This document shows, piece by piece, positions 3,646-53,585 of a stretch of DNA of 64,000 bases; position 1 is the first letter of the stretch; the number at the start of each line of letters is the position of its first letter. A model generated the notes under the pieces. It was given only the letters and a program-made list of their open reading frames with translations, was not told where the DNA came from and searched no databases. Origin of the DNA: an uncultured bacterium (GTDB taxonomy: Bacteria > Actinomycetota > Acidimicrobiia > Spongiisociales > UBA5794). Made by a program: the position numbers and the translations under genes. Where the stretch lies: assembly GCA_963801165.1 (NCBI GenBank), contig CAWDDT010000004.1, positions 814,637 to 878,636 of the forward strand, written 5' to 3'.

Positions 3646-4260
3646 GTGATCCCCCCATTTCGGGGGGATCGGGCGGCCTCCCGGGCCGTGCGAGGGGGGA
3701 AGGACGGGCGGCGCTCGCTGTTGGTTGTGTCCCCGTCCTGGTCCAGTCCCTCCCTGTGGTCGGGTCTGGCCCCGCCCTCCCGCAAGGGGAGGGCTGCTAC
3801 TGGCGTGACCGCCGATCGGGTGTACCAGCGGCGATTGCGGAGACCAGTAGTGATCCCCCCATTTCGGGGGGATCGGACGGCCTCCCGGGCCGTCCGAGGG
3901 GGGAAGGACGGGCGGCGCTCGCTGTTGGTTGTGTCCCCGTCCCGGACCAGTTCCTCCCTGTGGTCGGGTCTGGCCCCGCCCTCCCGCAAGGGGAGGGCTG
4001 CTACTGGCGTGACCGCCGATCGGGTGTACCAGCGGCGATTGGGGGAGACCAAGCAGTGATCCCCCCATTTCGGGGGGATCGGGCGGCCTTTTGGGCCGTC
4101 CGAGGGGGGAAGGACGAGCGGCGCTCGCCGTTGGTTGTGTCCCCTCCCTCGGTCAGCTACTCGCCTGCGGCGGCGCTGCCCTCGACCCTCCCGCAAGGGG
4201 AGGGTCACTACCGCGCCACCGCTCGGAAACAACAGCGATCCCCCATTTTGGGGGGATCGG
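3646..4260. repeat. Tandem array of ~204-206 bp composite palindromic (REP-like) units, 3 units plus a terminal hairpin
   Basis: GATCCCCCCATTTCGGGGGGATC hairpins at ~3648, 3852, 4058 (variant at 4237) and CCCTCCCGCAAGGGGAGGG hairpins; units 1 and 2 nearly identical. Confidence 0.9.
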
Positions 4261-32562: not shown

Positions 32563-33102
32563 TCAGTCCACCAGATCGGCTGGATCGAAGCTGACCTCGG
32601 CCGGTCCGATGTCGAGGGTGACGGTGGTGCCCGGCCCGTGCCGGCCCTGTTCGACCAGGATTCCGTCGACCAGCTTGTAGACGATGACCTCCGGTCCGTC
32701 GGGGTCGATGATCCAGTAGCGCTCGAGCCCGGCCGCGGCGTATTTGGCGGCCTTGCGGATGATGTCCCGGGCAGGGTCCGAGGAGAGCACCTCGACGGCC
32801 AGATACGGTGTTGCGGTGTAGCGCACATCCTCGCCGCGGTCATCGAAGACCATCACATCCGGCCCAAACTCGTCCGGGCCGGGCTTCCAACCCCAGCCCT
32901 CCCGTACACGGGTTGGCATCGATACGGCGCTCTTGAGGATGACCGCAAGGTTGAACGAGACATCCTGATGACGACCACCGGGGAACGGACTCATAACGAG
33001 CTCTCCGTCGATGTACTCGCCTCGGACGTCGGGTCCGAGTGCTTCGTATTCGTTCCAGGACATGGGGATGCGGTCCCCGGGTTGCATGGTCTTGGTAGCC
33101 AT
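32563..33102 (-). CDS. Uma2 family (DUF820) endonuclease, copy 1
   Basis: [22 protein letters not shown]...K..Y...G..YWIIDP; 179 aa. Confidence 0.92.
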   Translation of the reverse strand: MATKTMQPGDRIPMSWNEYEALGPDVRGEYIDGELVMSPFPGGRHQDVSFNLAVILKSAVSMPTRVREGWGWKPGPDEFGPDVMVFDDRGEDVRYTATPYLAVEVLSSDPARDIIRKAAKYAAAGLERYWIIDPDGPEVIVYKLVDGILVEQGRHGPGTTVTLDIGPAEVSFDPADLVD

Positions 33103-33249
33103 GTCATACACAGTAACCCTCCTTCGCCCTCCGCGGTGGTGCGCCTTCAGCACCATCTCATGCGGGTGTGACACGATCCGGCCGGTGCTTGGCTGCGTGG
33201 TCGAGACTCGCGGCTGTCGCGGGTGAATCGCGCCGGGGGACGCGTATGG

Positions 33250-33789
33250 CTATGCCACGAGCTCTACCGGATCGAAGCTGACCTCCGTTGGTCCGATGTC
33301 GAGGGTGACGGTGGTGCCCGGGCCGTGGCGGCCTTGTTCGACGAGGACGCCGTCAGTGAGCCGGTACACGATGACCTCGGGTCCGTCGGGGTCGATGATC
33401 CAGTAGCGCTCGAGACCTGCGGCGGCGTATTTGGCGGCTTTGCGGATGATGTCCCGGGCAGGGTCTGAGGAGAGCACCTCGATGGCCAGATAGGGAAGCG
33501 CGGTGAGGCGCTTTCGCTCGTCGGACACGCCGAATACCGTTACGTCCGGGATGAATTCGTCGTTGTCCGGCTTCCAAGCCCAATTCTCCACTACCTCGGC
33601 GTGCTCCGGCAATGCGACTTCGATGAGTTTGTGGATGCGATAGGCGATCCGTTGGTGGTCTAGCGTCGGCGACGGGCTCATAACGAGTGCGCCGTCGATG
33701 TACTCGCCGCGGACGTCGGGCCCGAGTGCTTCGTATTCGTCCCAGGACATGGGGATGCGGTCCCCGGGTTGCATGGTCTTGGTAGCCAT
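33250..33789 (-). CDS. Uma2 family endonuclease, copy 2
   Basis: Same motifs; 179 aa. Confidence 0.92.
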
Positions 33790-33943
33790 GTCATACACAG
33801 TAACCCTCCTTCGCCCTCCGTGGTGGTGCGCCTTCAGCACCATCTCATGCGGGTGTGACACGATCCGGCCGGTGCTTGTCTGCTGCTCGAGACTCGCGGC
33901 TGTCGCGGGTCAGAACTCGCCGCCGGGGTGACCGCTGTATCGG

Positions 33944-34482
33944 CTATGCCACGAGCTCTGCTGGATCGAAGCTGACCTCTGCCGGTCCGATGTCGAGGGT
34001 GACGGTGGTCCCCGGGCCGTGCCGGCCTTGCTCGACGAGGACGCCGTCATGAGCCGGTACACGATGACCTCCGGTCCGTCGGGGTCGATGATCCAGTAGC
34101 GCTCGAGACCGGCCGCGGCATACTTCGCAGCCTTGCGGATGATGTCCCGGGCAGGATCCGAGGACAGGACTTCGACGACCAGGCACGGTGTTCCGGTGTA
34201 GCGCGTCTCCTCGGGAGTTATGTCGTGAACCACCACGTCGGGGACGAACTCGTCCTTCCCTGGCTTCCACGCCCAATTCTCCACAACAACAATCTCTCTA
34301 GGGAGGTTCGCTTCGATGAGATTGGCAAGTCGACGCGCCAGCTGTTGGTGGCGGTGCGTCGGCGACGGGCTCATAACGAGTTCCCCGTCGATGTACTCGC
34401 CGCGCACGTCGGGCCCGAGTGCCTCGTATTCGTCCCAGGACATGGGGATGCGGTCCCCGGGTTGCATGGTCTTAGTAGCCAT
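33944..34482 (-). CDS. Uma2 family endonuclease, copy 3 (1-nt deletion near 34050)
   Basis: 539 nt versus 540 nt for intact copies. Confidence 0.88.
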
Positions 34483-34629
34483 GTCATACACGATATACCT
34501 CCCTCGCCCTCCACGGTGGTACGCCTTCTGTATCGTCTCAAGCGGGTGTGACAATTTCGGGCGTACCCCTCGCAGTGTGACGGTTGGTGCCACAATGTGC
34601 GTCGGTGGTGCCGTCGATACGGGGGACCG

Positions 34630-37600
34630 ATGCCGATACAGCTTCATGTAGCTCCGCATCCAGACGCGCTCGTCGATTTGCTCATCGACCGGCTTGCCGT
34701 CCCTCCCGAGGATCCGTTTGCGCCGGAGCTGATTGCGGTTCCGACCCGGGGTATCGAGCGGTGGCTGACGCAGCGGATCGCGCTCGGGTTCGCTGAGCGC
34801 GGGATTGGTGACGGGGTGGTCGCCAATGTCGAGTTTCCGTCGCCACGCCATCTGGTGCAACAGGTGCTTGCTGTTGTTCCCGACCTCGCCGCCTCTGCCG
34901 ATGCCTGGCAGACGGCCAACCTCACCTCTCACGTGCTCACCGCCATCGACCGGCATGTCGACGAGGCGTGGCTGCGGCTCATCCAGCGATACATCGACGG
35001 CCCCACCGGGCCCAACCGGCTCGGCGCCGCTACCAAGATCGCCCGGCTGTTCTCGACATACGCCAGGCGCCGTCCCGAGATGATCCGCTCCTGGGCAGAT
35101 GGCCAAGACGTCGGGCCTGCCGGTGAGCCGATCGACGCCGGGTACGCATGGCAGCCGACCCTGTGGCGGGCGGTGCGAGACGAGATCGGCATTCCGCCGC
35201 TCGCCAGTTTGCTGCCGGAAGGGCTCGACCCCATCCGCGACGGATCGATCGACCTCGACCTGCCCGACCGGCTCGCCGTGTACGGGCTCACCGCCACCGA
35301 TCCGCTCGACCTCCAGGTGCTCCGGGCACTCGGCGAGCAGCGGGATGTGGCCCTGTATGCGCTGCACCCCTCGCCGGGGCTGTGGCAGACGCTCGCGGCG
35401 GGCGGGCTGACGGTCATTTCCCGCGACGACGACCCCACCGCAGCCGCCCCGGTGCATCCGCTGCTCGGCTCATGGGGCAGAGACAGCCGTGAGCTACAGA
35501 CGGTGCTGAGCGATGCCGGGCTCGCATCCTCCCTGTCTAGCTCTGGGGATGAACAGCCGTTTGATGCCCTCCCCGGCGAGCCCCTTCGGGGCCGCCGACC
35601 CTCCCAAAGGGAGGGTGAATCTCCCTCTCCCTCTGGGAGAGGTCCCGAGCGAAGCGAAGGGGGTGAGGGCCTTGTGGTGCCGTCCGATATTCCCTCTCCC
35701 TCTGGGAGAGGTCCCGAGCGAAGCGATGCCGGTGAGGGCGTTGTACTGCCGGCCGGTCCGGGGATTCCCTCTCCCTTTGGGAGAGGTCCCGAGCGAAGCG
35801 AAGGGGGTGAGGGCCTTGTGGTGCCGTCCGATATTCCCTCTCCCTCTGGGAGAGGTGGCGAGCGAAGCGATGCCGGTGAGGGCCTTCGACTGCTCGCCCG
35901 GATCCAGGCCGACATCGAGAACAACCGCCCGGCAGAGCCCCAACCCGACCTGGCCGAAGCCGTCACCGCCGGCTCGGATCGCAGCGTGCAGATCCACGTC
36001 ACCTACGGGCCGCGTCGTCAGGTGGAGGTCACCCGCGACGTCATCCTGCACCTTCTCGCCGACGATCCGACCCTCGAGCCGCGTGACATCGTCGTCATGA
36101 CCCCCGACCTCGGCACCTTCGCCCCGTTGCTCGAAGCGGCCTTCCCCACAGGCGACCGCGACGACACCGATGGCATGCCCGACCTGCGGCTCCGCATCGC
36201 CGACCGTTCCCCGGCGGCGGTCAACCCGCTGGTGCGGTTCGCTGCCAGCGTGCTCGAGCTCGCCGACTCCCGCATGGAGGCCAACACCATCCGGCAACTG
36301 GTCACCCGCCCGGTGGTGCAGCAACGCTTCGGGTTCGACGTCGACACGGCGGCGGCCATCACCGGCATCATCAACGACAGCAACATCAGCTGGGGCCTCG
36401 ACTCCGACCACCGGGAGCAATGGGGCGCCGGGCACTTGCCCGACCGCACCTGGAGCCGCGGCCTCGACCGGGCGTTGACCGGCGTCTTTTACAGCGACGA
36501 CCCGGTGCGGGTGATCGACCGCACCGTGCCCCTCGACGGCGTCGAGGGGCAGGACGCCACTCCGGTGGGGCTGCTGGCCGCCCTCATCGACCGCATCGGT
36601 GCCATCCGGGACCTGCTCGCCAACGCGATGCCGATGTCGCAATGGGCGCAGGCGATCGCCGACAGCGTCCGGCTGCTGGCCAAACCCGGCTGGGACGACG
36701 AATGGCAGATTGGCCAGCTGGAGCGGCTGCTCGGCGAGACCTTCCCCGAGACCACACGGGACCCAACGCTCACCCTCGCCGAAGCCCGCCGGGCGATCGC
36801 CGGTTGGACCGAGACCCGGCCCAGCCCGCTGCACTTCCGCACCGGCGACGTCACCGTGTGCACGCTGGTGCCGATGCGCTCGGTGCCGTACCGGGTGGTG
36901 TGCCTGCTCGGCATGGACGACGAGCGCTTCCCCCGCTCCAGCCGCACCGACGGCGACGACCTGCTGGTGGGCGACGAGCGGGTTGGCGATTTCGACCGCA
37001 GCTCGGAGGATCGCCAGCTGCTGCTCGATGCGTTGATGGCGGCAAGCGACCACCTCGTCGTCACCTACTCGGGAAGGGACGAGCTCACCAACAGCGAGCT
37101 GCCCCCTGCGGTGCCCATCGCCGAGCTACGCGACACCCTCGACGACATGGTCGGACCCGACGGGCTCGCCGCCATCGTCACCCAACATCCGCTCCAGTCT
37201 TTCAGCACCGCCAACTTCACCCCCGGCGCCCTCGGTGTGCCAGGGCCGTTTGGTTTCGACGCCGCCGCCTTCGCCGGAGCCGGGGCGATCGCCACCGGCT
37301 CGACGACACCGCTTGTCGAGGCGGGCTGGCCCGACCCCGAGCCGATCGAGACTCTCGACCTCGGCGACCTGATCAAGTTTCTGCAACACCCGGCGCAACG
37401 TTTCCTGCAAACCCGGGTGGGCTATGTGGTGCCAAGGGCAGGTGAGGAGCCCGACGACACGCTGCCCGCCGACCTCGACGCACTCAGCAAGTGGAAGGTG
37501 AAAGAGCAGGTGCTGGACGGCCTGGTCGACGGGTACGCGCTCGATGCCCTTCAGCTGCGGCAACGGGTCGGCGACACGCTGCCGCCGGGGGCGCTCGGCG

Positions 37601-38256
37601 ACGATGATCTTGCCGATGCCGTCGCCGCAGCGAGCGCACTGTGGGAAGGAGCTCAGGAACGTTCCTACCACCGGCAACAGATGCGCACATACCTGGGGAG
37701 TCTCCCGATCGGCGGGGTGACGGTGGCGGGCAGCGTCCTGGGCGATCCGGGCGAGGCACACCTGGCCCGGGTTACGGCATCCACCATCAAGGGCAAGCAC
37801 CGGCTGCAGGCTTTCGTCGAGCTCGTGTTCCTGAGCGCGCTGGAGCCCGAGGTTGCGTGGGAGTCGTTCCTGCTGGGGAGACGGGGCTCGGGGCACCTCG
37901 CGGTGACGATCGGCCCGGTGGGCGGCGATCCCGACCAGCGCCGGCGGCGGTCTCTTGAGTTGCTGGCTGAGCTGGTTGCGCTGCATGCCGAAGGTATGCG
38001 GGAGCCGCTGCCGCTCCCGTGTCAGACCGCCTATGCCTGGCAGCGCAACGTCGGCTCCGATCGGGGCAAGGCTTTTGGTGAGGCGATGAAGGTCTGGGAG
38101 TCCGACCGATACGACCCGGAGGCGCAGGACCCGGCCTACCAGACGTTATTCGGGGGTGTTCTGTCGTTACGGGATTTGCTCGCCACCGACTTCGAGGACT
38201 ACTGCGCCAGGCTCTGGGGCCCGATCTTTCCTTTGATGCGGGAGCAGAGCATATGA
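34630..38256 (+). CDS. recC: Exodeoxyribonuclease V gamma subunit with in-frame palindromic-repeat insertion
   Basis: [54 protein letters not shown]; first gene of the recCBD operon. Confidence 0.93.
35567..35883 (+). repeat. REP-like palindrome cluster inside recC
   Basis: CCCTCTCCCTYTGGGAGAGG..CGAGCGAAGCGA..GGTGAGGG units at 35623, 35692, 35767 and 35836, plus a CCCTCCCAAAGGGAGGG hairpin. Confidence 0.92.
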
Positions 38257-41200
38257 CCGCCTTCTCCGAATTCGACCCCCGTGAGCCACTAAGCGAAGGC
38301 CGCACCGTCATCGAAGCCAGCGCCGGCACCGGCAAGACCTTCGCCATCTCCGCCCTGGTAACCCGCCTCATCGCAGAGGAAGGCCTCCCCCTAGAAGAGA
38401 TCCTGGTAGTCACCTTCACCAGAGCCGCCACCGCCGAACTACGAGCAAGGGTCCGCGACCGAATCCTGCTGACGCTCCGTGCGCTAGAAGCGGCGGGCGC
38501 CGCTCGCTTCCTCGCCCTCGACCGGGCTGAGCCCGGTCGATCCCCCCGAAATGGGGGGATTACTGCTGGTTCCGAAGCCGGTGGCCCCGCTATTTCCTCT
38601 CCCTTTGGGAGAGGTGGCGAGCGAAGCGGAGCTGGTGTGCCCGGTTCTTTCCCTCTACCTGGGTGAGGCTGGGACTGGTGGGACGCTGACCGGGCTGTGC
38701 CCGGTTCTTTTCCTCTCCCTTTGGGGAGGTGCCTGCGTGGGAGCTGAAGGGTGTGCCCGGTTCTTTCCCTCTCCCTTCGGGTGAGGTGCCTGAGGGGAGT
38801 GAGCTGGTGTGCCGGTTCTTTCCCTCTCCCTTTGGGTGGGGCTGCGCTGGCCGGGAGCTGAGGGTGAGCCCGGTTCTTTCCCCTCGCCTTCGGGTGAGGT
38901 GACCTGGTGGGTAGTCCGAAGCCGGTGGCTCAGCAGTAACCCTCCCCTTGCGGGAGGGTCGAGGGAACGCCAGCGACCGAGGGGAGGGGAGGGCGAACCA
39001 CGCTGGAACGTCGTCCGAGACCCAAACTCCGAACCAGTCAGACGAACATGTCGCAGTCCTCCTCCAGGCCGACCCGGCCACCCGCGACCTGTACGCCACC
39101 CGCCTCCGCCAGGCGCTGACGCATTTCGACCGTGCCCAGATCTTCACCATCCACGGGTTCGCCCAGCGGCTGCTCGGCCAGCTCGGGTTGCGGGCCCGCC
39201 TCTCACCCGACCTGGAGCCGGGGGAGCCCGACGAGTTGCTGTTGACCCAGACCGCAAGCGACCTGATCGTCGGCCGCTACGCAGACAACGCCGCCGAGCA
39301 GCCCCCCAAGTTCAGCGACGTGGTTGGTGTTGCCCGTGCCGTCATCGGCACGCCGGACGCCCGCATCGTCCCCGACCCGGACGACGTCGACGGTGCGGCG
39401 AGGGCCCGGGTGGAGCTGGCACACGCCATGCGCACCGAGGTGCACCGCCGGATGCAGGCGCAGGGCCAGGTGACCTACGACGATGGGCTGCTCGAGGTAC
39501 GGGACACCCTCGGTGACCCGGAGGTGGGTGCCGCCGCCCGTGAGGTGTTGATGCGCCGCTATGCGGTGGCGCTTGTGGACGAGTCGCAGGACACCGACCC
39601 CATCCAGTGGCAGGTGATCCGGGCGATCTTCGACGAGTCCCGGCTGGTGGTGATCGGCGACCCGAAGCAGTCGATATACAGCTTCCGTGGCGCCGACATC
39701 GAGTCATACCTGGCCGCCCTCGACGGCGCCGACTCGCTGCGGACGTTGCGGACCAACTGGCGCAGCGACGGCGGGCTGCTGGTCGGCCTCGATGCGTTGT
39801 TCGATGAGGCCAGCTTCGGCGACGACCGGATTCGCTATCTCCCGGTGCAGCCGGCCCCGGGCCACGAGCACGCCCGCATCACCGGCATCGCGGCACCGCT
39901 GTCGATCCGTCGCTTCGGCACCGGCATCCCCATCAACAAAGCGAGGAAGGGCGTCTTCTACATCAACGACGCCCGCCAGATGGTGGCCGCCGATGTCGCC
40001 GCCGAAATCGTCCGTCTGCTCACCTCGGGAGTGACCATCACCGGCCCCGACGGGCCGCGGCCGCTGCGTCCCGACGACATTGCGGTGCTGTGCCGCACCC
40101 GTCGCCAGGTGGACATGGTGCGTGGCGAGCTGACCCGTCGTGCGGTGCCGTCGGTGGCGGCCCGCACCGGGGGAGTGCTCGCCTCGGCCGCCGCCGAGGA
40201 GTGGCGGCGATTCCTGCACGGCGTCGAAGCCGCCGAGCGGATGGACCGGGTCAAGCTGGCGGCCAGCTCGCTGCTCGTCGGGTACACGCCGCAGCAGATC
40301 GCCGCCCTCAGCGACGAGGAGGCGCTGGAGCTGCAACGCCGGATGCAGCAGTGGCGGGAGCTTCTATACAACGACGGGATCCCGGCGCTGGTGGCAGCCG
40401 TCGACCGGTTCTGCGGGCTGTCGGCACGGGTGCTGACGGTGCCGGACGGGGAGCGGATCATGACCGACCTCACCCACATTGCCGAGGAGTTGCATGCGGT
40501 GTGGCGGCGGCGCCGGATCGGCTCGCTGGTGGGGTGGCTGGAGACGGCGATGGCCGAGGCGGCCCAGCGGGAGCTGACCGGCGCCGAGGAGGCCGAGTCC
40601 CGGCAGCGTCGTCTCGAGACCGACGCCGATGCGGTGCAGGTGCAGACCGTCCACGCCGCCAAGGGTTTGCAGTGGCCGGTGGTGATGGTGCCGTACGGGT
40701 GGGATGCCCCGGCCCGGCGTTATCCCATCCCGGTGTTCCACTCCGACGAGCCGACCGCCGTGGGTGACGCCAGGGAGCGACTCATCGACGTCGGAGGCAA
40801 TGGCGCCCCCGGCTTCGCCGACCATGTGCACCGGGCATCGGCCGAGGATGCCGGTGAGGAGGCCAGGCTGTTGTATGTGGCGTTGACCAGGGCCGAGCAT
40901 CACCTGGTGGCGTGGTGGGTGGAGAACACCGACAACACGCCGAACTCGAAGCTGGACGAGCTGCTCACCGGCGACGACCGCACCCTCGACGGACTGGTCG
41001 AGATCGCAGGCGGCAACATCGGGGTGGTGATGGTGAACGATCGCCCATCCACTACCCGGTACCGCCCGGCGGCGCCACAGCCGCAGCGTCTGGAGCGGGC
41101 CCGGCTCGATCGCCGCCTCGACTACGACTGGCGGCGGGCCTCGTTCTCATCGTTGTCGCCGGAGCACCCCATCGGGGCCGCCACCGACACCGCCGAGCCC

Positions 41201-42065
41201 ACCAAGGCGGACGAGTCCGACTTCGCCGTCGAACCGGAGGAGGAGCCCGTCGCCGGGGAGTCGTCGTTGCCGATGGCGGAGCTGCCCCGCGGCGCCCGCT
41301 TCGGCACGCTGGTGCACCACATCTTCGAGCAGGTGCCGTTCGACGCCCCGGACCTGGAAGCGGCGATCCGGGAAACGGCGGAGGAGGCGTTGCGGCTGGC
41401 CGCCTGGGACATCGACCTCGACACGCTCACCGCGGCGGTGCTGGCGGCGATGGAGACCCCGCTCGGCCCCGATCCGGCGTCACCCCGGTTGCGGGACCTC
41501 GATGCCGCACCGGGTATTCGACGAGCTGACCTTCGAGCTGCCGGTCCGCACCGACCGGGGCACGGTGTCGCTGCGGGACATCGGCGATGTGATGCTCGAG
41601 CACCTCGACCCCGCCGACCCGTTCCGCCGCTACGCCGAGACCCTGCACACCATGCCGCAGACCCGGTTCCGCGGGTTCCTCACCGGCGCCATCGACCTGA
41701 CCGCAGTGATGCCCGGCGAGCGCTACGTGGTGATGGACTACAAGACCAACGCCCTCCCGACGCGAAGCGACGCCCCGGCCGCACCCGACTACGGCCCGCA
41801 CCAGCTGACCACAGCGATGATCGACGGCAACTACGTGCTCCAGGCCACCCTCTATCAGGTGGCCCTGCACCGCTACCTCCAGTGGCGTCTCGCCGGCTAC
41901 GACCCGGCCCGCCACCTGGGAGGCGCCATGTATCTGTTCGTCCGCGGCATGGCCGGCCGGGATGCCCCGGTGGTTGACGGCGAACGCTGCGGCGTAGCCC
42001 GCTGGACCCCACCCCCGGAGATGATTGTTGCCCTCAGCCGCCTGTTCGCAGGAGACGCCCAATGA
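38253..42065 (+). CDS. recB: Exodeoxyribonuclease V beta subunit, interrupted by a palindromic-repeat insertion (~38500-39040) and a frameshift at ~41510
   Basis: EASAGTGKT, VVTFTRAATAEL, TIHGF, VDESQDTD, IGDPKQSIYSFRGAD, TVHAAKGL, YVALTRA; nuclease motif GAIDL..DYKTN. Confidence 0.9.
38515..39000 (+). repeat. REP-like palindrome cluster inside recB
   Basis: GATCCCCCCGAAATGGGGGGAT, CCTCTCCCTTTGGGAGAGG, five degenerate ~57-nt CCGGTTCTTTCCCTCTCCC units, CCCTCCCCTTGCGGGAGGG. Confidence 0.88.
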
Positions 42066-44461
42066 CGCCCCGCATCGCCCTGGCAACAGAACGCCCCTGG
42101 CTGGTGGTAGCGGCAGACGGCCTGCTGGCGACGTTCAACGACGCCGGTGTCCTCAACCCGCTGGACGTCAAGGCCGCCCAAACCATCGCCCGCCTCCTCG
42201 GCGAAACCGACGACCGCGTGCTCCTGGCCGCAGCGCTGGCCGTCCGCGGCACCAGATACGGCCACGTATGCATCCGCCTCGACACAGTCAGAGACGCGGT
42301 AGCAGTAGACGGCCAGGACCCCGAAGAAATCGAGCACCTGCCCTGGCCCGAAACAGAGCCCTGGGCGGAGGCAGTACAAGCAAGCCCCCTGGTAACCAAC
42401 ACCGACCCCCCACTGGTCTACGAGCAAGGCCGCCTATACCTAGCCCGCTACCACCACTACGAACAACAGGTAGCCAACCTCCTCCTATCCCGCCTTTCGC
42501 CGGTTCTTCCCTCTCCCTTTGGGAGAGGTGCCGAGCGAAGCGAAGGCGGTGAGGGCCTTAGTGAGCAGAAGCCGGGATTGGTGATGCGGCACAGAGGGAT
42601 GCCCGCCCAGCAACCCTCCCCTTGCGGGAGGGTCGAGGGAGCGTCAGCGAGCGAGGGGAGGGGAGGCCGGACGGCGGTGGGGTGGTTGGTACCGGTGATG
42701 GCGGAGCAGCAACCATCCCCTTGCGGGAGGGTCGAGGGACCGTCAGCGAGCGAGGGGAGGGGAGGCCGGACGGCGGTGAAGTGGTTGGTACGGGTGACGG
42801 CGGAGCAGTAACCCTCCCCTTGCGGGAGGGTCGAGGGAGCGTCAGCGAGCGAGGGGAGGGGAGGCCGGACGGCGGTGATGGCCCTTCCCCCCTCGACCGG
42901 GCTGCGCCCGGCCCCGGTTCCGGAGCGGAGGGGGAAACAGCTGGTGGCCCCACTATTTCCTCTCCCTTTGGGAGAGGTGGCGAGCGCAGCGAAGCCGGTG
43001 AGGGCATCCCGTCTGAAGCGAGCGGCGCTCAACCAGACGAAGCCGGTGGCCCCGCTATTTCCTCTCCCTCTGGGAGAGGTGGCGAGCGAAGCGAAGGCGG
43101 TGAGGGCCTTGTGCAAGCAATCCCCCCGAGTTCCCACTCCGTTCTCGCCCGTCTCCTCGGCGCAGACACCCGCCAACACCAGGCCGCAATGTTGGCGCTC
43201 ACCAGCCGTGTGACGGTAATCGCCGGAGGCCCCGGCACCGGCAAGACCCACACCATCGCCGCGCTCCTCGCCGCGTTGGCGGCGGGCGACGAGTTCCCCA
43301 CAGTCGCGGTAGCCGCCCCCACCGGCAAAGCCGCAGCCCGCCTCGGCGAAGCGCTGGACGCAATGGCTCACGAAGTAGCCGACGACCGCATCGCAACCCG
43401 CCTGGCAACCGTCGTGCCGAGCACCATCCACCGCCTCCTCGGCTGGACCTGGGACCGGGCCCGTTTCGCCCACAATGAGCGAAATCGTCTCCCTCACGAC
43501 CTGGTGATAGTCGATGAGATGTCGATGGTCTCGCTCCCGATGGCCGCCAAGCTCCTGGCGGCGGTGCGTGACGATGCGACGGTGGTGCTGTTAGGCGACC
43601 CCGACCAGCTGGAGTCGATCGAGGCCGGCACCGTACTGGCTGACATAGTCAGCGCCGGCCAGCGAGCAAGGAATACCCATCGCCAACCACGTGGTGGTGC
43701 TCGACCGAGTCCACCGTTTCGAGGAAGACAGCGCCATAGCCGACTTCGCCGCAGCGGTCCGCGATGGCAACGCCGATGAAGCGATCGAGCTGTTGCGGGC
43801 CGGCAGCGATCATGTCACCTGGGCCGGGGATCGCCAGTCCAGAGTCTTCGACGAGATCTGGTCCCGCCTCATAGACCAACGCATCCGCCTGGTAGAGCTG
43901 GCCGGCGACGGCGACGGCCCTGGAGCCCTGGCAGCGCTGAACGAGCTTGCCGTGTTGTGTGCCCGCCGCAATGGCCCGCAAGGCGTGTCGGGTTGGGGCC
44001 GCGAGATCGAACGTGCCCTGGATGAGCGATTCACCGGTTTGCGCTGGGGGAGCGACTGGTACCCGGGCCGCCCGGTGATGATCACCAAGAACGATTACAG
44101 CCAGGACCTGTGGAACGGCGACATCGGCGTGTGCGTGGAGACGCCGGACGGCATGCGGGTGCTGTTCGACCGCGCCGGCGGCCGGGAGCTACTACCCAGC
44201 CACCTGGGCGAGCACACCACGGTGCACGCCATGACGATCCACAAGAGCCAGGGCTCCCAATTCGACGAGGTAGCGGTGGTCCTCCCCAGCGAGTCGTCCC
44301 GCCTGCTGACCCGGGAGCTGCTGTACACAGCGGTGACCAGGGCGAGAACCCGGGTCAACATCATCGGCAGCGAAGACGTGGTCCGGGCGGCTGTGGAGCG
44401 CTCGGTGCAACGGGCATCAGGACTCGGTGCGCGGCTAGCCAAAGTCGCCACGGAACGCTGA
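42062..44461 (+). CDS. recD: Exodeoxyribonuclease V alpha subunit with palindromic-repeat insertion (frameshifts ~42565 and ~43670)
   Basis: GHVC, RLYLARY, GGPGTGKT, APTGKAAARL, TIHRLLG, VDEMSMV, NGDIG, AMTIHKSQGSQF, LLYTAVTRA. Confidence 0.9.
42500..43108 (+). repeat. REP-like palindrome cluster inside recD
   Basis: Three 99-nt-spaced CCCTCCCCTTGCGGGAGGG-type units (42610, 42709, 42808) and three CCTCTCCC..GGGAGAGG units (~42510, 42959, 43061). Confidence 0.92.
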
Positions 44462-44525
44462 TAGCTCGCGAACCGCGGCTCGCTCGACGAATGACGGGAG
44501 CACCGGCGTTTGATCCGTGGCCCGC

Positions 44526-44699
44526 TCAGGTGAGGAGCTGTGCCGGGTCGAGGGTGACTTCGGCCGGGCCTGCGTCGAGTGTGACCTCGGACCCCGGGCG
44601 GTGGATTGCCTGCTCGACAAACATTGAGTCGGCCAGGCCGTACACGGTGATCTCGGGTCCTCGAGGGTCGATGATCCAGTAGCGCTCGAGGCCGGCGGC
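44526..44699 (-). pseudogene. Uma2 C-terminal remnant (copy 4)
   Basis: [17 protein letters not shown]...TLDAGPAEVTLDPAQLLT*; palindromes lie where the 5' part would be. Confidence 0.85.
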
Positions 44700-44722
44700 T
44701 GACCCTGGGTGTTCTGGACATG

Positions 44723-44849
44723 CCCTCCCCGGCCAGCCCTGCGGGCGGCCGACCCTCCCAAAGGGAGGGTGAACCATTGAGAGAAGCGGATGCGCCGGAG
44801 GTTCCTCTCCCTTGGGAGAGGTCCCGAGCGAAGCGAAGGGGGTGAGGGC
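44723..44849 (+). repeat. REP-like palindrome pair
   Basis: Same two element types, in the same order, as at 35567-35670 in recC. Confidence 0.88.
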
Positions 44850-44939: not shown

Positions 44940-45656
44940 ATGATCTTGAGTTTGCTGGCGCACGGGAACCGGGTGTTGCGGCCCCAGGATGCCGCCGGGC
45001 TGTACGCCGAGCCCAGCAAGGAGTTTGCCCGGCTGGCCGATGCGGGCGTGCTGCTGCGGCTCTCTCATGGCTATTACGCGGTAGTGCCGGAGGAGCGGCG
45101 ATCGGCGGCCTGGCGTCCCACGGTCGAAGGCGTTGCTCTCGGCGTGGCAATTGCCGACTACTCGACAGACGCGGTGGCGTTGATGGGCGTGTCGGCCGCT
45201 CGAGTCCTGGGATGGGTGCCCCGCGCCATGGCTGGTGCCGTGGTGGGCGTGCCCAAACAGCGTCCGGCTCGACAAACCCCGGTTGGCCCGATCACCTTTG
45301 TGATGCGCGATGTGGGGAGGCTCGAGGTCCAGGTCGTAGAAACAGATCTGGTCCGGGGGTTCGCCACGACTGCCGAGCAGACCGCACTGGATATCGCCCA
45401 CCGGCCGGGTCGCGGCGGGGTTGGTCCGGCAATGGCGGTTGAGACTCTGACCGTCCTCGCCGAGCACCTCGACTGGGATGTAGTTGCCGACCTCACCACA
45501 CGCCAGCGGAAGCACTCGGCAGCAGCCCGGCTGGCATGGATCGCATCGGCGGTCGTCGATCCGCCTTCTTTGCCGCGGCCCCGCAAGCCCGTTTCGTCGC
45601 TCGGGTTGCGTCCGAGGGGCACCAGGCCGGCCGCTGATTTCGGGGTCGTCGAATGA
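44940..45656 (+). CDS. Type IV TA AbiEi-family antitoxin
   Basis: RLADAGVLLRLSHGYY wHTH, SAA..LG, TTAEQTALD motifs. Confidence 0.82.
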   Translation: MILSLLAHGNRVLRPQDAAGLYAEPSKEFARLADAGVLLRLSHGYYAVVPEERRSAAWRPTVEGVALGVAIADYSTDAVALMGVSAARVLGWVPRAMAGAVVGVPKQRPARQTPVGPITFVMRDVGRLEVQVVETDLVRGFATTAEQTALDIAHRPGRGGVGPAMAVETLTVLAEHLDWDVVADLTTRQRKHSAAARLAWIASAVVDPPSLPRPRKPVSSLGLRPRGTRPAADFGVVE

Positions 45657-46396
45657 TCACCCCGGACGAGGTGGCCGGCCAAGCCGGACGATGGGGTGTG
45701 GCGCCGAGCCAGATCGAGAAAGATCACATGATCTCGCATCTGCTCGCCGCCATTGCAGAGACGGGCTTCCCTTGCCGGTTCTACGGCGGGACGGCGCTGA
45801 ATCGGAGCCACGTCGCCGGCGGCCGTCTCTCTGAGGACATCGACCTGATGGTGGATGACATCTCTGTCGATGTTGGTGCGGTGCTCCGTCGTCCGCTGCT
45901 TCGCCATGTGGGCGACACGACCTGGGAGCTGAGGTCTCGTCGCACCTGGATGCGGACATACGACGTGACGGCGCTGGGCACCTCGGTCCAGCTGCAACTG
46001 GTGCGGTTCGATCGGGACGATCGGCGTTGGGGCTGGGAACAGCGGCCCGTCGAACTCCGCTACTCGTGTCTTCCGGATCATGTTGTCATGAATCTGCCGG
46101 TACGCGACGGATTCGTCGCGATGAAGTTGAACGCCTACACGGAAAGGTGGGCGCCACGCGATCTGATGGACCTTGCCAATCTGGCCGGTCGGGGTGCGAT
46201 CACCGCCCGGGCGGTGGCGCGCTATCGCCACGCCACCGGAAGAGGTGTGTCGCTGGATGACTTCGCTTCCGTCCGCAGGCCGACACGTGCCGAGTGGAAC
46301 ACGGAGCTGGGACATCAGATGGCCGAACCGGGGGAACCGGAGGAAGCGGTGCAGATCGTCCACGACGCGTTGGCGTCGGCAGCTCGATCTGCGTGA
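45653..46396 (+). CDS. Type IV TA AbiEii/AbiGii nucleotidyltransferase toxin
   Basis: IEKD, FYGGTAL, RLSEDIDL, K..A..ER..PRDLMDL. Confidence 0.88.
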   Translation: MITPDEVAGQAGRWGVAPSQIEKDHMISHLLAAIAETGFPCRFYGGTALNRSHVAGGRLSEDIDLMVDDISVDVGAVLRRPLLRHVGDTTWELRSRRTWMRTYDVTALGTSVQLQLVRFDRDDRRWGWEQRPVELRYSCLPDHVVMNLPVRDGFVAMKLNAYTERWAPRDLMDLANLAGRGAITARAVARYRHATGRGVSLDDFASVRRPTRAEWNTELGHQMAEPGEPEEAVQIVHDALASAARSA

Positions 46397-46437: not shown

Positions 46438-46779
46438 CTACAGCTCCAGTACCAGCCGTAGCCCGGCAGCGACCTCGGACATGGTCTCGGCGCCAAGGAC
46501 AGAGACCTTCTGTGCGAGGGTGCGTCTGTCGAGGGTGATGATCTGCGACACGTTGACGACTGAGTCTTTCGGGAGCCGGGACGCTCGCTTGGAGAGCGCT
46601 ACGTTGCCCGGTGCCGCGGCCAGACGTTGGTTCGACGTGATCACGGCGGCAACGATCGTGTTGATGCGGCTGGCGTTGAACGAGTCGGCTTGTACCACGA
46701 GGACCGGTCGGCGTTTTGCCGGGGTCGAGCCGGTGGGATCTCCGAGATCTGCCCAGTAGATCTCTCCGCGCCTGATCAC
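46438..46779 (-). CDS. mazF: PemK/MazF family endoribonuclease toxin
   Basis: RRGEIYWADL..P.GS.PAKRRPVLVVQ, LPKDSVVNVSQI.TLD. Confidence 0.92.
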   Translation of the reverse strand: MIRRGEIYWADLGDPTGSTPAKRRPVLVVQADSFNASRINTIVAAVITSNQRLAAAPGNVALSKRASRLPKDSVVNVSQIITLDRRTLAQKVSVLGAETMSEVAAGLRLVLEL

Positions 46780-47012
46780 CAGTCGTCCCCGGCAACGGCG
46801 AGTCTCTGCGCTGCGGCCAGGTCCCGGTCGAGGGAGGAATCCGTTGCTTCGTATACCTCATCGAGGGCTGCGGTGACGTGAGACGGGGCGTGATCCTCGA
46901 CGTATTTTGAGAGGGCGCGGGCGTACAGCTGGCTTCGGGGAATCCCGAGCCGCTGCGCCAGGTCGTCGGCACGCCGGAACAGATCATCGGGCAGCGAGAT
47001 GGCGGTCTTCAC
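46776..47012 (-). CDS. RHH antitoxin (MazE-like)
   Basis: MKTAISLPDDLF..AD.LA..LG..RSQLY; overlaps the toxin start. Confidence 0.88.
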   Translation of the reverse strand: MKTAISLPDDLFRRADDLAQRLGIPRSQLYARALSKYVEDHAPSHVTAALDEVYEATDSSLDRDLAAAQRLAVAGDDW

Positions 47013-47080: not shown

Positions 47081-47368
47081 CTAACAGAGCAGTTCGGCGG
47101 GTCGACAGGTCACCTCAGCCGGCCCGACGTCGAGGGTCGCCGATGCACCCGGCCGGTGCCGGTACCGTTCTACTAGGACGCCGTCGACCAGCCTGTAGAT
47201 GATGATCGCGGGTCCGTCGGGGTCGATGATCCAGTAGCGCTCGAGCCCGGCGGCTGCGTACCTGGCGGCCTTGCGGATGATGTCCCGAGCAGGATCCGAC
47301 GACAGGATCTCGACGACCAGGTGAGGTACGGCGGTGTAGCGGATCTCATGTCCGTTGTCGTCGAAGAC
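47081..47368 (-). pseudogene. Uma2 5'-truncated remnant (copy 5)
   Basis: [37 protein letters not shown]...YWIIDP...PAELLC*; lacks the N-terminus and the PD motif. Confidence 0.85.
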
Positions 47369-47512
47369 AATGGGATGGGCCCAAGAGCCGTCGAGGCCGC
47401 TTGCAGCCGTCAGGCCGTCGATCTGCGCTACGGTCAGCGCCCATGTTGTCGGAGACTCGTCTCCCGTGAGATCGCCACGGCCCCGGATCCGCGTACCAGT
47501 CCGCTCGAGTCC

Positions 47513-48247: not shown

Positions 48248-48786
48248 TCAGTTGAGTAGCTCTGCGGGGTGGAAGCTGACCTGTGTCGGTCCGACGTCGA
48301 GTGTCACTGACGTGCCCGGGCCGTGACGCCCCTTCTCGACGAGGACGCCGTTGGTGAGCTGGTATACGATGACCTCGGGTCCGTCGGGGTCGATGATCCA
48401 GTAGCGCTGGAGCCCGGCGGCTGCGTATTTGGCGGCTTGCGGATGATGTCCCGCGCCGGGTCAGATGACAGGATCTCGACCACGAGGTGTGGTGTCCCCG
48501 AATGGCGGGTCTGCTCGGGGGAGTCGTCGTGGACCGTCACATCGGGTACGAACTCGTCGTTGCCGGGTTTCCATCCCCAGCCCTCGACGACACGTGCCGG
48601 AGCGGTTAATGCCGTCTTCAGAATGATGGCGAGATTGAGCGATATGTCCTGGTGTCGATGGGTAGGTGACGGGCTCATGACGAGACTCCCGTCGATGTAT
48701 TCGCCACGCACATTGGGGCTGAGTGCTGCGTATTCGTCCCAGGACATGGGGATACGGTCGCCGGGCTGCATGGTCTCGGTAGCCAT
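48248..48786 (-). CDS. Uma2 family endonuclease, copy 6 (1-nt deletion near 48437)
   Basis: 539 nt; same termini as the other copies. Confidence 0.88.
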
Positions 48787-48949
48787 GTCATACACAATAG
48801 ACCTCCCTCGTCCCCCGCGGCGGGGCCTCTCGAGCATCATCCCTGCCAAGGGAAACTGCGCTCGGTGGCCCCTCCACGGCGGAGCCTCGCGATGATGATG
48901 ACGCAGGGCTGTGATACGCCGCGTGGCCTATAGACCGGGGGTCGTCTTT

Positions 48950-48996
48950 CCTCTCCCTTTGGGAGAGGACGCGAGCGAAGCGAAGCAGGTGAGGGC
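48950..48996 (+). repeat. Single REP-like palindrome
   Basis: CCTCTCCCTTTGGGAGAGG..CGAGCGAAGCGA..GGTGAGGG. Confidence 0.85.
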
Positions 48997-51220: not shown

Positions 51221-51514
51221 GTGGTTGGCGATGGCCGGTCCTTTCTGCGCTCTGCTGAGAATACCCATGATGACATTGTCAGCGTCGCCGGTGACAGATT
51301 CGCAGCGTGCCCACAATCTCGGCCTGATTCGATTCCGCCCTGTATTCGTCATTGCCTTGCGAGCGCCTTCCGGGAGGCTCACGACGAGAGCGTGTTGCCC
51401 CCGAGTCGACACTCACTGACCTTCGGCCGCCGCTGACCGGCGCTGGCCTACGCGGATTTCTGCAGTTCGGCACTGTCAATTACCGTCGGGATCTACCGGA
51501 CGTAGGAGGGACTG

Positions 51515-53585
51515 ATGCGCTCACGAGGCCTGGTGGTGGTGTTCACCGTGACAGCTGCCTTGATGGCGGTGCCTGCCGGTGCTCATGCAGATCTCACCTT
51601 CAACGGCACCATCGAGGGCCGGGTGACCCTGTGGGGGTCGGGTGAGCCGGTCGAGGGGGCCGAAGTGCGTGGCGTGTATGAACACGGTGCGGTGGACACG
51701 ACCACCGACGCCGACGGCTACTACCGGCTCGAGACCCTGGAATCCGGCACATACAACGTCACCTTCCGCATCGGGTCCAGCGATCCGTTCTGGTATTACC
51801 CGGGCACCTACGAGTGGTCCGAGGCGACGGACCTGACGATCATCAACGACGAGGTGTACACCGGGATCGACGGCATGGTGCAGGAGGTAGGCACCATGAT
51901 CGGCAGGGTCACCGACGACACTACCGGTGATCCGGTTGCCGGGATGTGTGCCGATGTCTACGACACTGCGAAAACCGTCGTGGGTACGGCTGTCTCCAAT
52001 GCCGACGGATGGTTGCTGTACCCGGGGATAACGGTTGGTACGAGCGACCAGTGGTTGGCGAGCGCAGCCCGCCTGTACGACTGCAGCGACCTCGGGTACA
52101 TCGACGAGTGGTATCGCAACGTCCCCCCTCAGCTCTCCGGTGGCCACAATGTCGTCGAGTACCTGAGCGAGCAGGGGCGCTTTGACGCTGCGGTGGGTGC
52201 GCCGGCTGCGATAGGGGGAACCGTGACCGACGCAGGCGACACACCTCTGGCGGGCATCTGTGTCTCCCTCAACTATTCCAACAGCGTCCTGGCGACGACG
52301 ACGTCTGACGACGCCGGCTACTACGAATTCCTCGGCCTGACCGCTGGAGATCACTACAGCCTCGACCTCGAAGACTGCGGTTCCCCGATGGTGTACATGA
52401 CGTTGGATCGTGTACCGGTGGCTGCGATCAGCGGCGCCACGAGCTACTACAACCACGTGTTGGAACCAACCGCTTCGATCAACGGCACGGTCACCGATGC
52501 ATCGACCGGACTTCCGCTCGAAGGTATCTGCGTGCTCGCCACCGCCGACCTCCATGCAGGTGCGCAGTTCGGGACGACGTCTACCGATGCCTCCGGCTTC
52601 TACTCCCTGGCGGTGCCGGCTGTCGTCGAACACCAGTATGTGCATGCCTATTGGTGTGGGGGCTCACCGGCGCTATATGCAAATCTCTGGTGGGACGATG
52701 TCACCACATATGAAGAGGCGACCGATCTCCAAGTTGGTGATGGCGAGCACCGCACCGGTGTCGACTTTGCACTACCGGACAAGGCGACGACGGAGAACTG
52801 GCTGACGGTATCTGTGGATGACCTGCTGGGTCGTTCGCTGGAGGACGTGTGCGTTGCGGTCTCCGGCGACGCCGCGGCGGAGGGGAAGACCGGAACGGAC
52901 GGCACGGTGGTGCTGGCGCTGGCTGGCGGCGACTACACGGTGACGGCAGGTGTCGCCGGGACGGGTTGTGTCGCCGGGTATGAGGAGGCGAACGGAGTCG
53001 GTCTCGGTCGCCGGGCCTACGAGCGTATCGATCACGCTGGCGCTACCGGTGGAGTTCACCGACACACAGGACAGCGTGTTCGCCGCCGACATCGACTGGC
53101 TTGCCGGCGCCGGGGTCACCAAGGGGTGCAATCCGCCGCTCAACACCGAGTTCTGCGCCGACCAGGTGGTGACGAGGGGTCAGATGGCGGCGTTCCTGGC
53201 CCGGGCGCTCAGCCTGACCGACCGGCTGGATGACCCGTTCATAGATGACGATGGTTCGGTGTTCGAGGCGGACATCGAGAAGCTGGCCGCCGCCGGGATC
53301 ACGAGGGGCTGCAACCCGCCGGTGAACGACATGTTCTGCCCCGATGAGGCGGTGACGAGGGGTCAGATGGCGGCGTTCCTGGTGCGTGCCCTCGGCTACA
53401 CCGAAGCCGGTGACGGCGACCTGTTCATAGACGACGACGGCTCGGTGTTCGAGGATGCAATCGATCGTCTTGCCACTGCTGGTGTCACTAGGGGCTGTAA
53501 CCCGCCGGTGAACGACATGTTCTGCCCGAACGATGTGGTGACCAGGGGCCAGATGGCGGCGTTCCTGCACCGGGCGTTGGGGTGA
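51515..53585 (+). CDS. Secreted protein with carboxypeptidase-regulatory-like repeats and 3 SLH-like domains (frameshift ~52990)
   Basis: Signal peptide, repeated I.G.VTD..G.PL.GICV...TD..G.Y; GCNPP SLH repeats in ORF 52950..53585. Confidence 0.82.

What the first reader, a model, noticed from the sequence alone, without database searches (positions are those of the whole stretch)
34630..44461. All three RecBCD subunit genes carry arrays of REP-like palindromes, apparently translated in frame
Seen: recC has an ~110-aa insert of [16 protein letters not shown] units with no stop and unit spacings of 69, 75 and 69 nt. recD has an ~210-aa insert with spacings of 99, 99 and 102 nt; it is open from 42565 into the helicase core, so one indel would restore the whole gene. 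recB has an ~540-nt insert whose two ends read in the same peptide frames (SSPFGRGGERS, LPLREGRG). The same elements occur between genes at 3646-4260, 44723-44849 and 48950-48996. Each insert lies between conserved motifs. Known: in-frame coding palindromes are documented as Rickettsia palindromic elements. Inference: a mobile palindrome family has colonised loops of each subunit of the double-strand-break repair enzyme and is kept in frame by selection. Possible effects include shielding the enzyme from Gam-like phage inhibitors, tuning mRNA structure, or simply marking an insertion hotspot.
Basis: partly seen in the sequence, partly recalled or inferred. Interest (0 to 1): 0.82.

Follow-up and report, generated by a model that had tools for sequence, protein, structure and literature searches.

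The report
Hairpin-repeat arrays inside recC, recB, recD
A family of short G+C-rich hairpin repeats that normally sits between genes has settled at one flexible linker in each of the three RecBCD repair-enzyme genes of this bacterial lineage, a known kind of event in an unusually complete form, though in this assembly only recC still reads through.

Summary
The repeats are real and far from chance. Window recC (34597-38256) is one open frame of 1219 aa with a 4-unit array spaced 69/75/69 nt. recD loses frame once in its array and once outside it. The recB array has stops in all three frames and needs at least 3-4 shifts, and recB has one more shift outside the array.

Both shifts outside the arrays are a single extra C compared with five relatives. 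A 94%-identical metagenome contig (L050) has all three genes intact with in-frame arrays at the same sites. L051, L053 and protein P0001 also show in-frame arrays.

About 80 more distant recBCD loci are empty at all three sites. dN/dS of the host gene parts is about 0.15.

In the whole genome I found 137 units in 65 clusters. Only the three recBCD clusters lie inside a gene. No RAYT transposase was found.

An AlphaFold model predicts the recC insert as a disordered loop between confident helices.

REPs inside recBCD and other repair genes were already reported by Di Nocera et al. 2013, so I call this a new variant of a known kind. I could not settle whether recB and recD are broken in this strain or only mis-assembled.

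The parts
34597..38256 (+). recC, intact 1219-aa ORF. The likely true start is the ATG at 34630, where relatives begin to align.
   Evidence: 1w36_C, E 1.7e-79. dN/dS 0.14-0.21 against L050, G005 and G014.
35524..35889 (+). recC in-frame array. It holds a leader with two small hairpins, then 4 type-A units (CCCTCTCCC-loop-GGGAGAGG ... GAGCGAAGCGA ... GGTGAGGG). A 2-unit block of 144 nt is duplicated.
   Evidence: (families D1, D4). The site is 42 nt long in G005 and G014. In the AlphaFold model residues 302-417 have pLDDT below 50 and are coil.
38253..38666 (+). recB N-terminal piece (frame 0), holding helicase motif I. It runs into the array and stops.
   Evidence: aligns to E. coli RecB residues 9-81.
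38498..39040 (+). recB array: one type-A unit, five short degenerate units spaced 55-60 nt, and one type-B unit. There are stops in all three frames.
   Evidence: (D3).
38915..41977 (+). recB helicase core (frame 2). After about 41505 it reads out of frame.
41502..42065 (+). recB C-terminal nuclease piece (frame 0). The frame is regained through one extra C at about 41505, which five relatives lack.
   Evidence: (PDDEXK_1). One base fewer at 41505/41507 in contigs of runs X1, X2 and X4.
42062..42811 (+). recD N-terminal domain piece (frame 2), running into the array.
   Evidence: RecD_N.
42499..43152 (+). recD array: A, B, B, B, A, A units (99, 99 and 102 nt spacings). The frame changes from 2 to 1 at about 42557-42568.
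   Evidence: In-frame counterpart in P0001.
42565..43779 (+). recD array remainder plus helicase motif I region (frame 1). It is out of frame after about 43663.
43649..44461 (+). recD C-terminal piece (frame 2). One extra C at about 43663 compared with five relatives.
44715..44849 (+). Intergenic composite element just downstream of recD, homologous to the left part of the recC array.
   Evidence: (D14, 97%).
3646..4260 (.). Intergenic array of related units in alternating orientation, between a DUF3039 gene and an RmlD-like gene.
48945..48996 (+). Single intergenic type-A unit.

Best explanation
The inserts are arrays of a REP-like family of short G+C-rich stem-loop repeats. Each unit has a C-rich arm, a 3-5 nt loop and a complementary G-rich arm. 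A variable inner segment follows, often a second small hairpin such as GAGCGAAGCGA, and then a second G-rich copy of the arm. The genome holds about 137 such units in 65 clusters, nearly all outside genes.

In an ancestor of this lineage, units entered one permissive inter-domain linker in each of three genes. In recC the site lies just before the conserved LLxRIQxDI helix. In recB it lies after helicase motif Ia. In recD it lies between the N-terminal domain and motif I. The arrays have since grown, shrunk and been replaced in place, by tandem duplication of blocks and by exchange with other copies.

Where the genes are intact, only length changes that keep the frame survive. The arrays are then translated as disordered Gly/Ser/Pro/Glu/Arg-rich loops that the enzyme tolerates.

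Shown: the anatomy, the sites, the empty alleles, in-frame intact genes in relatives, purifying selection on the host parts, and a prediction of disorder. Inferred: translation, tolerance, and the mode of array turnover.

In this assembly recC fits the picture. recB and recD carry frame breaks that are either consensus indels of the assembly or a very recent inactivation. I put these at roughly equal odds.
For: Anatomy and family: (137 units against 0 in the reversed-genome control; arms TCCCCCC 46, CCTCTCC 41, CCCTCCC 35).

Shared origin with intergenic copies: the left part of the recC array aligns with 44715-44849.

Genome context: of 65 clusters, only the recC and recD arrays have an upstream coding ORF that runs deep into or across them. 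recB missed my thresholds but is flanked by recB parts. Five other clusters showed short run-ins: four of 41-78 nt at gene ends and one with poor coding signal.

Same sites in relatives. Inter-anchor distances in 88 loci plus the window, as recC/recB/recD: window 531/737/782, G014 189/435/621, L050 390/282/414, G005 189/706/529, G003 485/462/361, L053 219/288/210, L051 180/345/not measured. In the other 81 loci the measured values are recC 174-249, recB 198-246 and recD 81-237.

Intact in-frame genes: L050 ORFs of 1190, 1199 and 676 aa; L051 and L053 recB and L053 recD; P0001 RecD, with N-terminal domain, about 190 aa of insert and motif I in one frame; G003 recB array open in the host frame; G005 recD array open over 4-5 units.

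Frame constraint: spacings 69, 75, 69, 99, 99 and 102 nt, so 6 of 6 are multiples of 3, against 6 of 21 in arrays elsewhere (approximate anchors).

Selection on host parts: dN/dS 0.149-0.162 over about 2700 codons against L050, G005 and G014. The recB and recD segments give 0.06-0.18.

Linker positions: alignments to E. coli RecC (between about 331 and 371), RecB (between 81 and 116) and RecD (between 123 and 155).

Disorder: model residues 302-417 have pLDDT 26-45 and are coil, between helices 277-295 and 421-430.
Against: In the window itself 2 of 3 genes are not readable.

The recB array has stops in all three frames and intergenic-type spacings of 55-60 nt.

Thirteen other long genes of this genome that I checked (about 38 kb of open frames) show no break. 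One further aminoacyl-tRNA-synthetase match has an internal TGA that I did not follow up. So random assembly error looks rare, and two extra bases in about 5 kb of non-repeat recB and recD are more than that rate predicts.

In G003, G005 and G014 several arrays are also out of frame.

Five of six reading frames of a type-A unit lack stops by my reading of the unit sequence, so an open frame alone is weak evidence.

No RNA or protein data were obtained.

The sequencing platform of L050, L051 and L053 is not known to me.
Confidence: 0.7

Rival explanations
1. In this strain recB and recD are real, very recent pseudogenes, and recBCD is being lost. The arrays, especially the recB one, now evolve as non-coding DNA. 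Only recC still looks intact.
For: There are two frameshifts outside the arrays and at least 4 frame changes inside them. No break was seen in 13 other long genes, about 38 kb. The recB array spacings are not multiples of 3. recC was found in only 5 of 14 other genomes of the genus and 7 of 24 of the family, so the operon is dispensable, although many of those genomes are incomplete. An AdnAB-like pair of UvrD-type helicases lies at C10:101331-105112; the AdnAB label is my inference.
Against: recC has no defect in 3.66 kb. dN/dS of the recB and recD parts is as low as that of recC, so any inactivation must be very recent. Both out-of-array shifts are the same kind of event, one extra C, and one of them falls inside what reads CCAGG in four of the five relatives. 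P0001, from another assembly, loses frame within the same roughly 20 nt but into the other wrong frame. This fits an error-prone context better than two independent mutations. Contigs of runs X1, X2 and X4 lack the extra base at 41505, but they are only about 97-98% identical there, so they come from other strains.
Confidence: 0.4
2. The arrays are kept and diversified by positive selection. They would be hypervariable surface loops on all three subunits that change how phage-encoded RecBCD inhibitors or other partners bind. The operon would travel between strains as part of a defence-type island.
For: Array length, unit subfamily and orientation differ at every site among genomes whose host-gene parts are 90-95% identical. 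The operon is 90-95% identical to G005 and G014 while the syntenic background is 75-80%, and its GC is 0.69-0.72 against about 0.64. The neighbours include Uma2, AbiEii, MazF/PemK and PIN genes.
Against: I made no test of binding, function or positive selection. Variability is equally expected for neutral repeat arrays. The recC site is simply empty in G005 and G014, so the loop is dispensable.
Confidence: 0.1
3. The repeats are drawn to, or preferentially retained in, DNA-repair genes for a mechanistic or selfish reason. For example, they might weaken the nuclease that would destroy their own intermediates, or create mutator or hyper-recombination variants, as Di Nocera et al. speculated.
For: All 3 intragenic clusters of this genome are in one enzyme. 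The paper states that REP-tagged genes are often repair genes and in many species are the only tagged coding sequences (passages).
Against: No transposase candidate was found: PF01797 gave 0 matches in a 98% complete genome. No target-site duplication was evident at the filled versus empty recC site (judged by eye). In this genome uvrD-like, dnaE and adnAB-like genes have intact frames, and no cluster lies at their coordinates.
Confidence: 0.1
4. The arrays inside the genes are assembly artefacts, that is, repeats mis-joined into the operon.
For: Repeats are hard to assemble, and joints between the arrays appear in short-read contigs (table 5).
Against: Arrays lie at the same three sites in independent assemblies: G003, G005, G014, L050, L051, L053 and P0001.
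Confidence: 0.02

Closest known systems
Intragenic REPs in replication and repair genes (Di Nocera, De Gregorio, Rocco 2013, BMC Genomics 14:522; PMC3733652). I read the abstract, found passages and section 6. The supplement listing the genes could not be opened.
   Same: Short palindromic repeats that are mostly extragenic but sit in frame inside recBCD, uvrABCD, polA and dnaE2 genes. In many species these are the only tagged coding sequences. The recB REPs of two Xanthomonas species lie at about the same site. Location in flexible linkers was proposed as the reason for tolerance.
   Different: Here all three subunits of one operon are hit. The arrays encode about 110-210 aa, whereas the paper mentions clusters encoding 43-82 aa. 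There is no consistent GTAG or CGTC tag (GTAG within 15 nt to the left in 21 of 137 units, CGTC in 12 of 137). No RAYT was found. The units have a second G-rich arm and an inner hairpin.
Rickettsia palindromic elements (Ogata et al. 2000). I know these only from passages of the review PMC10969869 and of PMC3733652; the original paper was not read.
   Same: Palindromic repeats inserted in frame into functional genes and translated as extra peptide segments thought to be compatible with the fold.
   Different: RPEs are single elements of about 150 bp spread over many unrelated genes of an obligate intracellular alphaproteobacterium. Here tandem arrays of 45-100 nt units are confined to one enzyme in a free-living, high-GC bacterium. 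Sequence similarity to RPEs was not tested.
Classical REP/BIME elements with RAYT transposases
   Same: Short imperfect palindromes, dozens to hundreds per genome, in clusters and in alternating orientation between genes (for example window 3650-4204).
   Different: There is no RAYT gene and no GTAG tag, so the way they spread is unknown.
In-frame intragenic MITE, ERIC or BOX insertions (review PMC10969869, passages only)
   Same: A small non-autonomous repeat creates a translational fusion with the host ORF.
   Different: No terminal inverted repeats or target-site duplications were recognised here, and these are arrays rather than single copies.

Membership tests
RecBCD (exodeoxyribonuclease V) operon, the host genes | recC with Exonuc_V_gamma and RecC_C; recB with UvrD-type helicase and a C-terminal PD-(D/E)XK nuclease; recD with RecD_N and an SF1 helicase; gene order recC-recB-recD | tested here: met
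   PDB matches to 1w36 chains C, B and D.
GTAG/CGTC-tagged REP superfamilies | Short stem-loop repeat, many copies, mostly extragenic | tested here: met
   137 units in 65 clusters, of which 62 are not internal to a gene by my ORF test.
GTAG/CGTC-tagged REP superfamilies | Conserved unpaired GTAG or CGTC tag at one end. CGTC types also have 8-9 bp stems starting with A/T pairs and a CCA tail (section 6 of PMC3733652). | tested here: not met
   GTAG within 15 nt to the left in 21 of 137 units and CGTC in 12 of 137. No tag is in the majority. The stems are C/G-only.
REP/RAYT (REPtron) systems | A Y1 (IS200/IS605-like) RAYT transposase gene in the genome | tested here: not met
   PF01797 gave 0 matches in G000 (98.19% complete). 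The control search found it in 6 of 14 reference genomes.
Rickettsia palindromic elements | In-frame insertion in functional ORFs | tested here: met
   recC here and all three genes in L050.
Rickettsia palindromic elements | Sequence membership in one of the RPE families | not tested
MITE | Terminal inverted repeats and target-site duplication | tested here: inconclusive
   Comparing the filled (window) and empty (G005, G014) recC sites showed no obvious duplication. The empty site itself holds a small hairpin, GCCCAAAGGGCGGGC. This was judged by eye only.
Rfam whalefall-1 RNA (RF01762) | Score at or above the gathering threshold (37 bits) | tested here: not met
   One unit (44801-44849) scored 24.5 bits, E 0.0085. 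No other unit was listed.

The most novel reading that the evidence does not exclude
The three arrays are not merely tolerated. They would be a selected, fast-evolving set of disordered loops on RecC, RecB and RecD, renewed from a genomic pool of hairpin repeats, that alters how the enzyme meets phage inhibitors or DNA ends. The operon would move between strains as cargo of a defence-type island. Under this reading a selfish repeat family serves as a diversity generator for a core nuclease.
Probability: 0.1. Interest if true: 0.8.

Novelty: new variant of a known kind. Interest (0 to 1): 0.5.

Why it matters
The link between REP-like repeats and DNA-repair genes was noted in 2013 and left unexplained. 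This lineage gives an unusually clean natural series. It has three sites in one enzyme, with empty, short and long alleles among close relatives, and with intact and possibly broken versions. That makes the question testable with ordinary experiments: does RecBCD work with 100-200 extra disordered residues per subunit, and do the inserts change nuclease activity, Chi response or sensitivity to inhibitors? It is also a warning for annotation. Gene callers will split or truncate such genes, and repeat-rich coding arrays are places where assemblies may lose the frame.

Tried and rejected
1. Short-read contigs. No listed piece spans a whole array, so they could not test frame continuity inside the arrays. 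At about 43663 no informative indel row was shown. Indel rows inside repeat units (35642, 35855, 42526/42528, 43079, 43098) have very high depth and come from other copies of the repeat, so they are not evidence about this locus.

2. Estimating this genome's indel rate from three-way alignments with about 210 kb each of G005 and G014. The syntenic background is only 75-80% identical and full of gaps, so I abandoned this.

3. Earlier notes of this scan returned nothing.

4. Rfam gave only sub-threshold hits (whalefall-1, ar45, P10).

5. A HMMER search with the 115-aa recC insert against 1.84 billion representatives gave only 2 hits. P0001 was useful. P0002 is an unrelated repeat protein. The search did not reveal other host proteins.

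6. The E. coli Chi octamer GCTGGTGG occurs 9 times in the window against 3.56 expected, and 3 of 100 shuffles reach 9. I do not treat this as meaningful.

7. Other arrays in G005 and G014 (7 regions). Those with Pfam-annotated neighbours lie between genes. One 694-aa ORF (L134:867-2948) spans three hairpins but has no Pfam match, so it stays unresolved.

8. Supplementary table of PMC3733652 (the list of REP-tagged genes).

9. I did not use complex prediction, fold search or the search for homologous proteins, because no binding claim is made.


Full report
WHAT IS THERE

The stretch 34597-44461 is a recC-recB-recD operon (Pfam; PDB sequence matches to E. coli RecBCD chains C, B and D). recC (34597-38256) is a single 1219-aa ORF.

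recB is in three pieces. Frame 0 runs 38253-38666, frame 2 runs 38915-41977, and frame 0 again runs 41502-42065. recD is also in three pieces. Frame 2 runs 42062-42811, frame 1 runs 42565-43779, and frame 2 runs 43649-44461.

Each gene carries one block of repeats: recC about 35524-35889, recB about 38498-39040, and recD about 42499-43152. I took these boundaries from alignment with relatives.

THE REPEAT

All units share one architecture: a C-rich arm, a 3-5 nt loop, a complementary G-rich arm, a variable middle, and a second G-rich copy of the arm. The arms vary together between subfamilies:
- CCCTCTCCC / GGGAGAGG / GGTGAGGG
- CCCTCCCC / GGGAGGG / GGGGAGGGG
- CCCCCCGC / GCGGGGGG / GGGTAGGGGGG (in relatives)

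These are read. Folding gives either the small hairpin or a longer one that uses the distal G arm. Only the type-B units fold clearly better than shuffles (z -3.5 and -3.7).

A structural scan finds 137 units in the 4.55-Mb genome and none in the reversed genome. nhmmer profiles built from the window's copies find 88 hits. Together they form 65 clusters covering 13.3 kb, or 0.29% of the genome. The operon holds 1.38 kb of them in 9.87 kb (14%).

The left part of the recC array is homologous to an intergenic composite element just downstream of recD at 44715-44849. So the coding and non-coding copies belong to one family.

No Y1/RAYT transposase was found. No consistent GTAG or CGTC tag was found either.

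ARE THE ARRAYS IN FRAME?

recC: yes. Spacings are 69, 75 and 69 nt, a 144-nt two-unit block is duplicated, and there is no stop.

recD: spacings are 99, 99 and 102 nt. The frame slips from 2 to 1 at about 42557-42568, and a second shift lies outside the array at about 43663.

recB: the array has stops in all three frames and needs at least 3-4 frame changes. Its five inner units are spaced 56, 60, 56, 55 and 58 nt, like intergenic arrays. A further shift lies at about 41505.

Both out-of-array shifts are one extra C relative to L050, L053, G005, G014 and G003. Contigs of three public runs also lack the base at 41505/41507. They are only about 97-98% identical there, so they belong to other strains.

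RELATIVES

Among 40 related genomes, recC was found in 9. I then measured the distance between conserved anchors on either side of each site in 88 loci plus the window.

In the 81 loci outside the close clade the distances are recC 174-249 nt, recB 198-246 nt and recD 81-237 nt.

Distances (recC/recB/recD) are expanded in:
- the window: 531/737/782
- G014: 189/435/621
- L050: 390/282/414
- G005: 189/706/529
- G003: 485/462/361

They are modestly expanded in L053 (219/288/210) and L051 (180/345/not measured).

So all three sites are empty in other genera. The recC site is empty in G005 and G014, where it is 42 nt long and holds a small hairpin. The arrays differ in length, unit subfamily and even orientation among close relatives.

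Most important, L050 is a 16-kb metagenome contig 94% identical in RecB. It has recC, recB and recD as single ORFs of 1190, 1199 and 676 aa with in-frame arrays at the same sites. L051 and L053 have in-frame units in recB, and L053 also in recD. P0001, a RecD from another assembly, reads from the N-terminal domain through about 190 aa of array into motif I in one frame.

G003, G005 and G014 show a mix of in-frame and out-of-frame arrays. They also show frame changes elsewhere in these genes.

SELECTION

dN/dS of the non-repeat parts against L050, G005 and G014 is 0.149-0.162 over about 2700 codons. recB and recD are as constrained as recC.

Spacings that are multiples of 3 make up 6 of 6 in the recC and recD arrays. 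Elsewhere they make up 6 of 21 (with approximate anchors). Units within an array are not independent of each other.

WHERE IN THE PROTEINS

By alignment to E. coli RecBCD:
- The recC array lies between residues about 331 and 371, just before the conserved LLxRIQxDI helix.
- The recB array lies between 81 and 116, after motif Ia and before the TIHGF motif.
- The recD array lies between 123 and 155, in the linker from the N-terminal domain to the motif I domain.

An AlphaFold2 model of the window's RecC, built with a 28-sequence alignment, has mean pLDDT 76.3. The insert (model residues 302-417) has pLDDT 26-45 and no secondary structure. It sits between confident helices 277-295 and 421-430.

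ARE recB AND recD BROKEN HERE?

For real inactivation:
- Thirteen other long genes have unbroken frames, 12,730 aa or about 38 kb in total. They are five class-I aminoacyl-tRNA-synthetase-type genes, five UvrD-type helicases, rpoB and two dnaE.
- One more synthetase match has an internal TGA that I did not follow up.
- By my own Poisson reasoning, two extra bases in about 5 kb of non-repeat recB and recD exceed that background.
- The recB array looks unconstrained.

For assembly error:
- recC is flawless, and dN/dS is low.
- Both shifts are the same event, one extra C.
- One of them interrupts what reads CCAGG in four of the five relatives.
- P0001 loses frame within the same roughly 20 nt but into the other wrong frame.
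- The other genome assemblies of the genus are also peppered with frame changes in these genes.

I cannot decide between the two and put it near 50:50.

CONTEXT NOTICED

The operon is 90-95% identical to G005 and G014, while the syntenic background is 75-80%. Its GC is 0.69-0.72 against about 0.64 for the genome. This suggests recent exchange of the operon within the genus. It is flanked by several Uma2-family genes and by toxin-antitoxin genes.

In seven other array regions of G005 and G014, the arrays with annotated neighbours lie between genes.

COMPARISON WITH WHAT IS KNOWN

In-frame palindromic elements are known from Rickettsia (review passages). More to the point, Di Nocera et al. 2013 (PMC3733652; abstract, passages and section 6 read) reported several things:
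- REPs occur inside genes of several species.
- Many of these are replication and repair genes, including the recBCD proteins, and in many species they are the only tagged coding sequences.
- The recB REPs of two Xanthomonas species lie at about the same site.
- Flexible linkers may explain tolerance.
- The association is unlikely to be fortuitous.

A full-text search for 'intragenic' + 'repetitive extragenic palindrom' + 'recBCD' returned only that paper. Its supplement listing the genes could not be opened.

The present case therefore belongs to a known kind. Four things are new:
- All three subunits of one operon are hit.
- Long arrays encode about 110-210 aa, against the 43-82 aa mentioned there.
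- The repeat architecture has no GTAG or CGTC tag, and no RAYT was found.
- There is a natural allelic series among close relatives.

VERDICT

I rate it a new variant of a known kind, with interest 0.5.

Noticed in passing
window 34400-44700 against G005:C6 and G014:C24: The recBCD operon and a few kb around it are 86-98% identical to two congeners. The rest of the syntenic contigs is 72-85% identical. The operon's GC is 0.69-0.72 against about 0.64 for the genome. This suggests recent horizontal exchange of the operon within the genus.
   Followed up: partly
window 32566-35469, 44500-44700, 47084-47512, 48307-48927, 54454-55164, 57122-57833: Many Uma2-family (putative restriction endonuclease-like) genes and fragments surround the operon. 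Three stand in tandem just upstream of recC on the opposite strand. A 65-nt stretch at 34052-34116 recurs at 44635-44699 with 83% identity.
   Followed up: no
window 57122-57833 (- strand): Two overlapping ORFs in different frames match Uma2 profile positions 1-115 and 112-159. This is a frameshifted Uma2 gene, and the only clear split gene I saw outside recBCD in the window.
   Followed up: no
window 45638-46393, 46441-46857, 56494-56901: Toxin-antitoxin-type genes (AbiEii nucleotidyltransferase, MazF/PemK, PIN) lie downstream of the operon, giving the region an island-like make-up.
   Followed up: no
window 51506-53582 (+ strand): Two overlapping same-strand ORFs together look like one S-layer-type protein. 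One (51506-53230) has CarboxypepD_reg and SdrD_B domains. The other (52944-53582) has an SLH domain. This may be another frame break.
   Followed up: no
window 43655-43680 and protein P0001: Two independent assemblies lose the recD frame within the same roughly 20 nt but into different wrong frames. Five other relatives are in frame there.
   Followed up: partly
window 44801-44849: One type-A unit gives a sub-threshold Rfam match to whalefall-1 RNA (24.5 bits against a gathering score of 37, E 0.0085).
   Followed up: no
G000:C10:101331-105112: Two adjacent UvrD-type helicase genes of 1036 and 1053 aa look like an AdnAB-type end-resection pair. If so, RecBCD would be dispensable here. The AdnAB label is my inference.
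   Followed up: no
G014 (contigs C10 and C24): This relative holds two recC copies. One is 95% and the other 91% identical to the window's. It may be a mix of strains in one bin.
   Followed up: no
L134:867-2948 (G014:C10): A 694-aa open frame with weak coding signal spans three hairpin units and has no Pfam match. It is either spurious or a second kind of gene with an internal array.
   Followed up: partly
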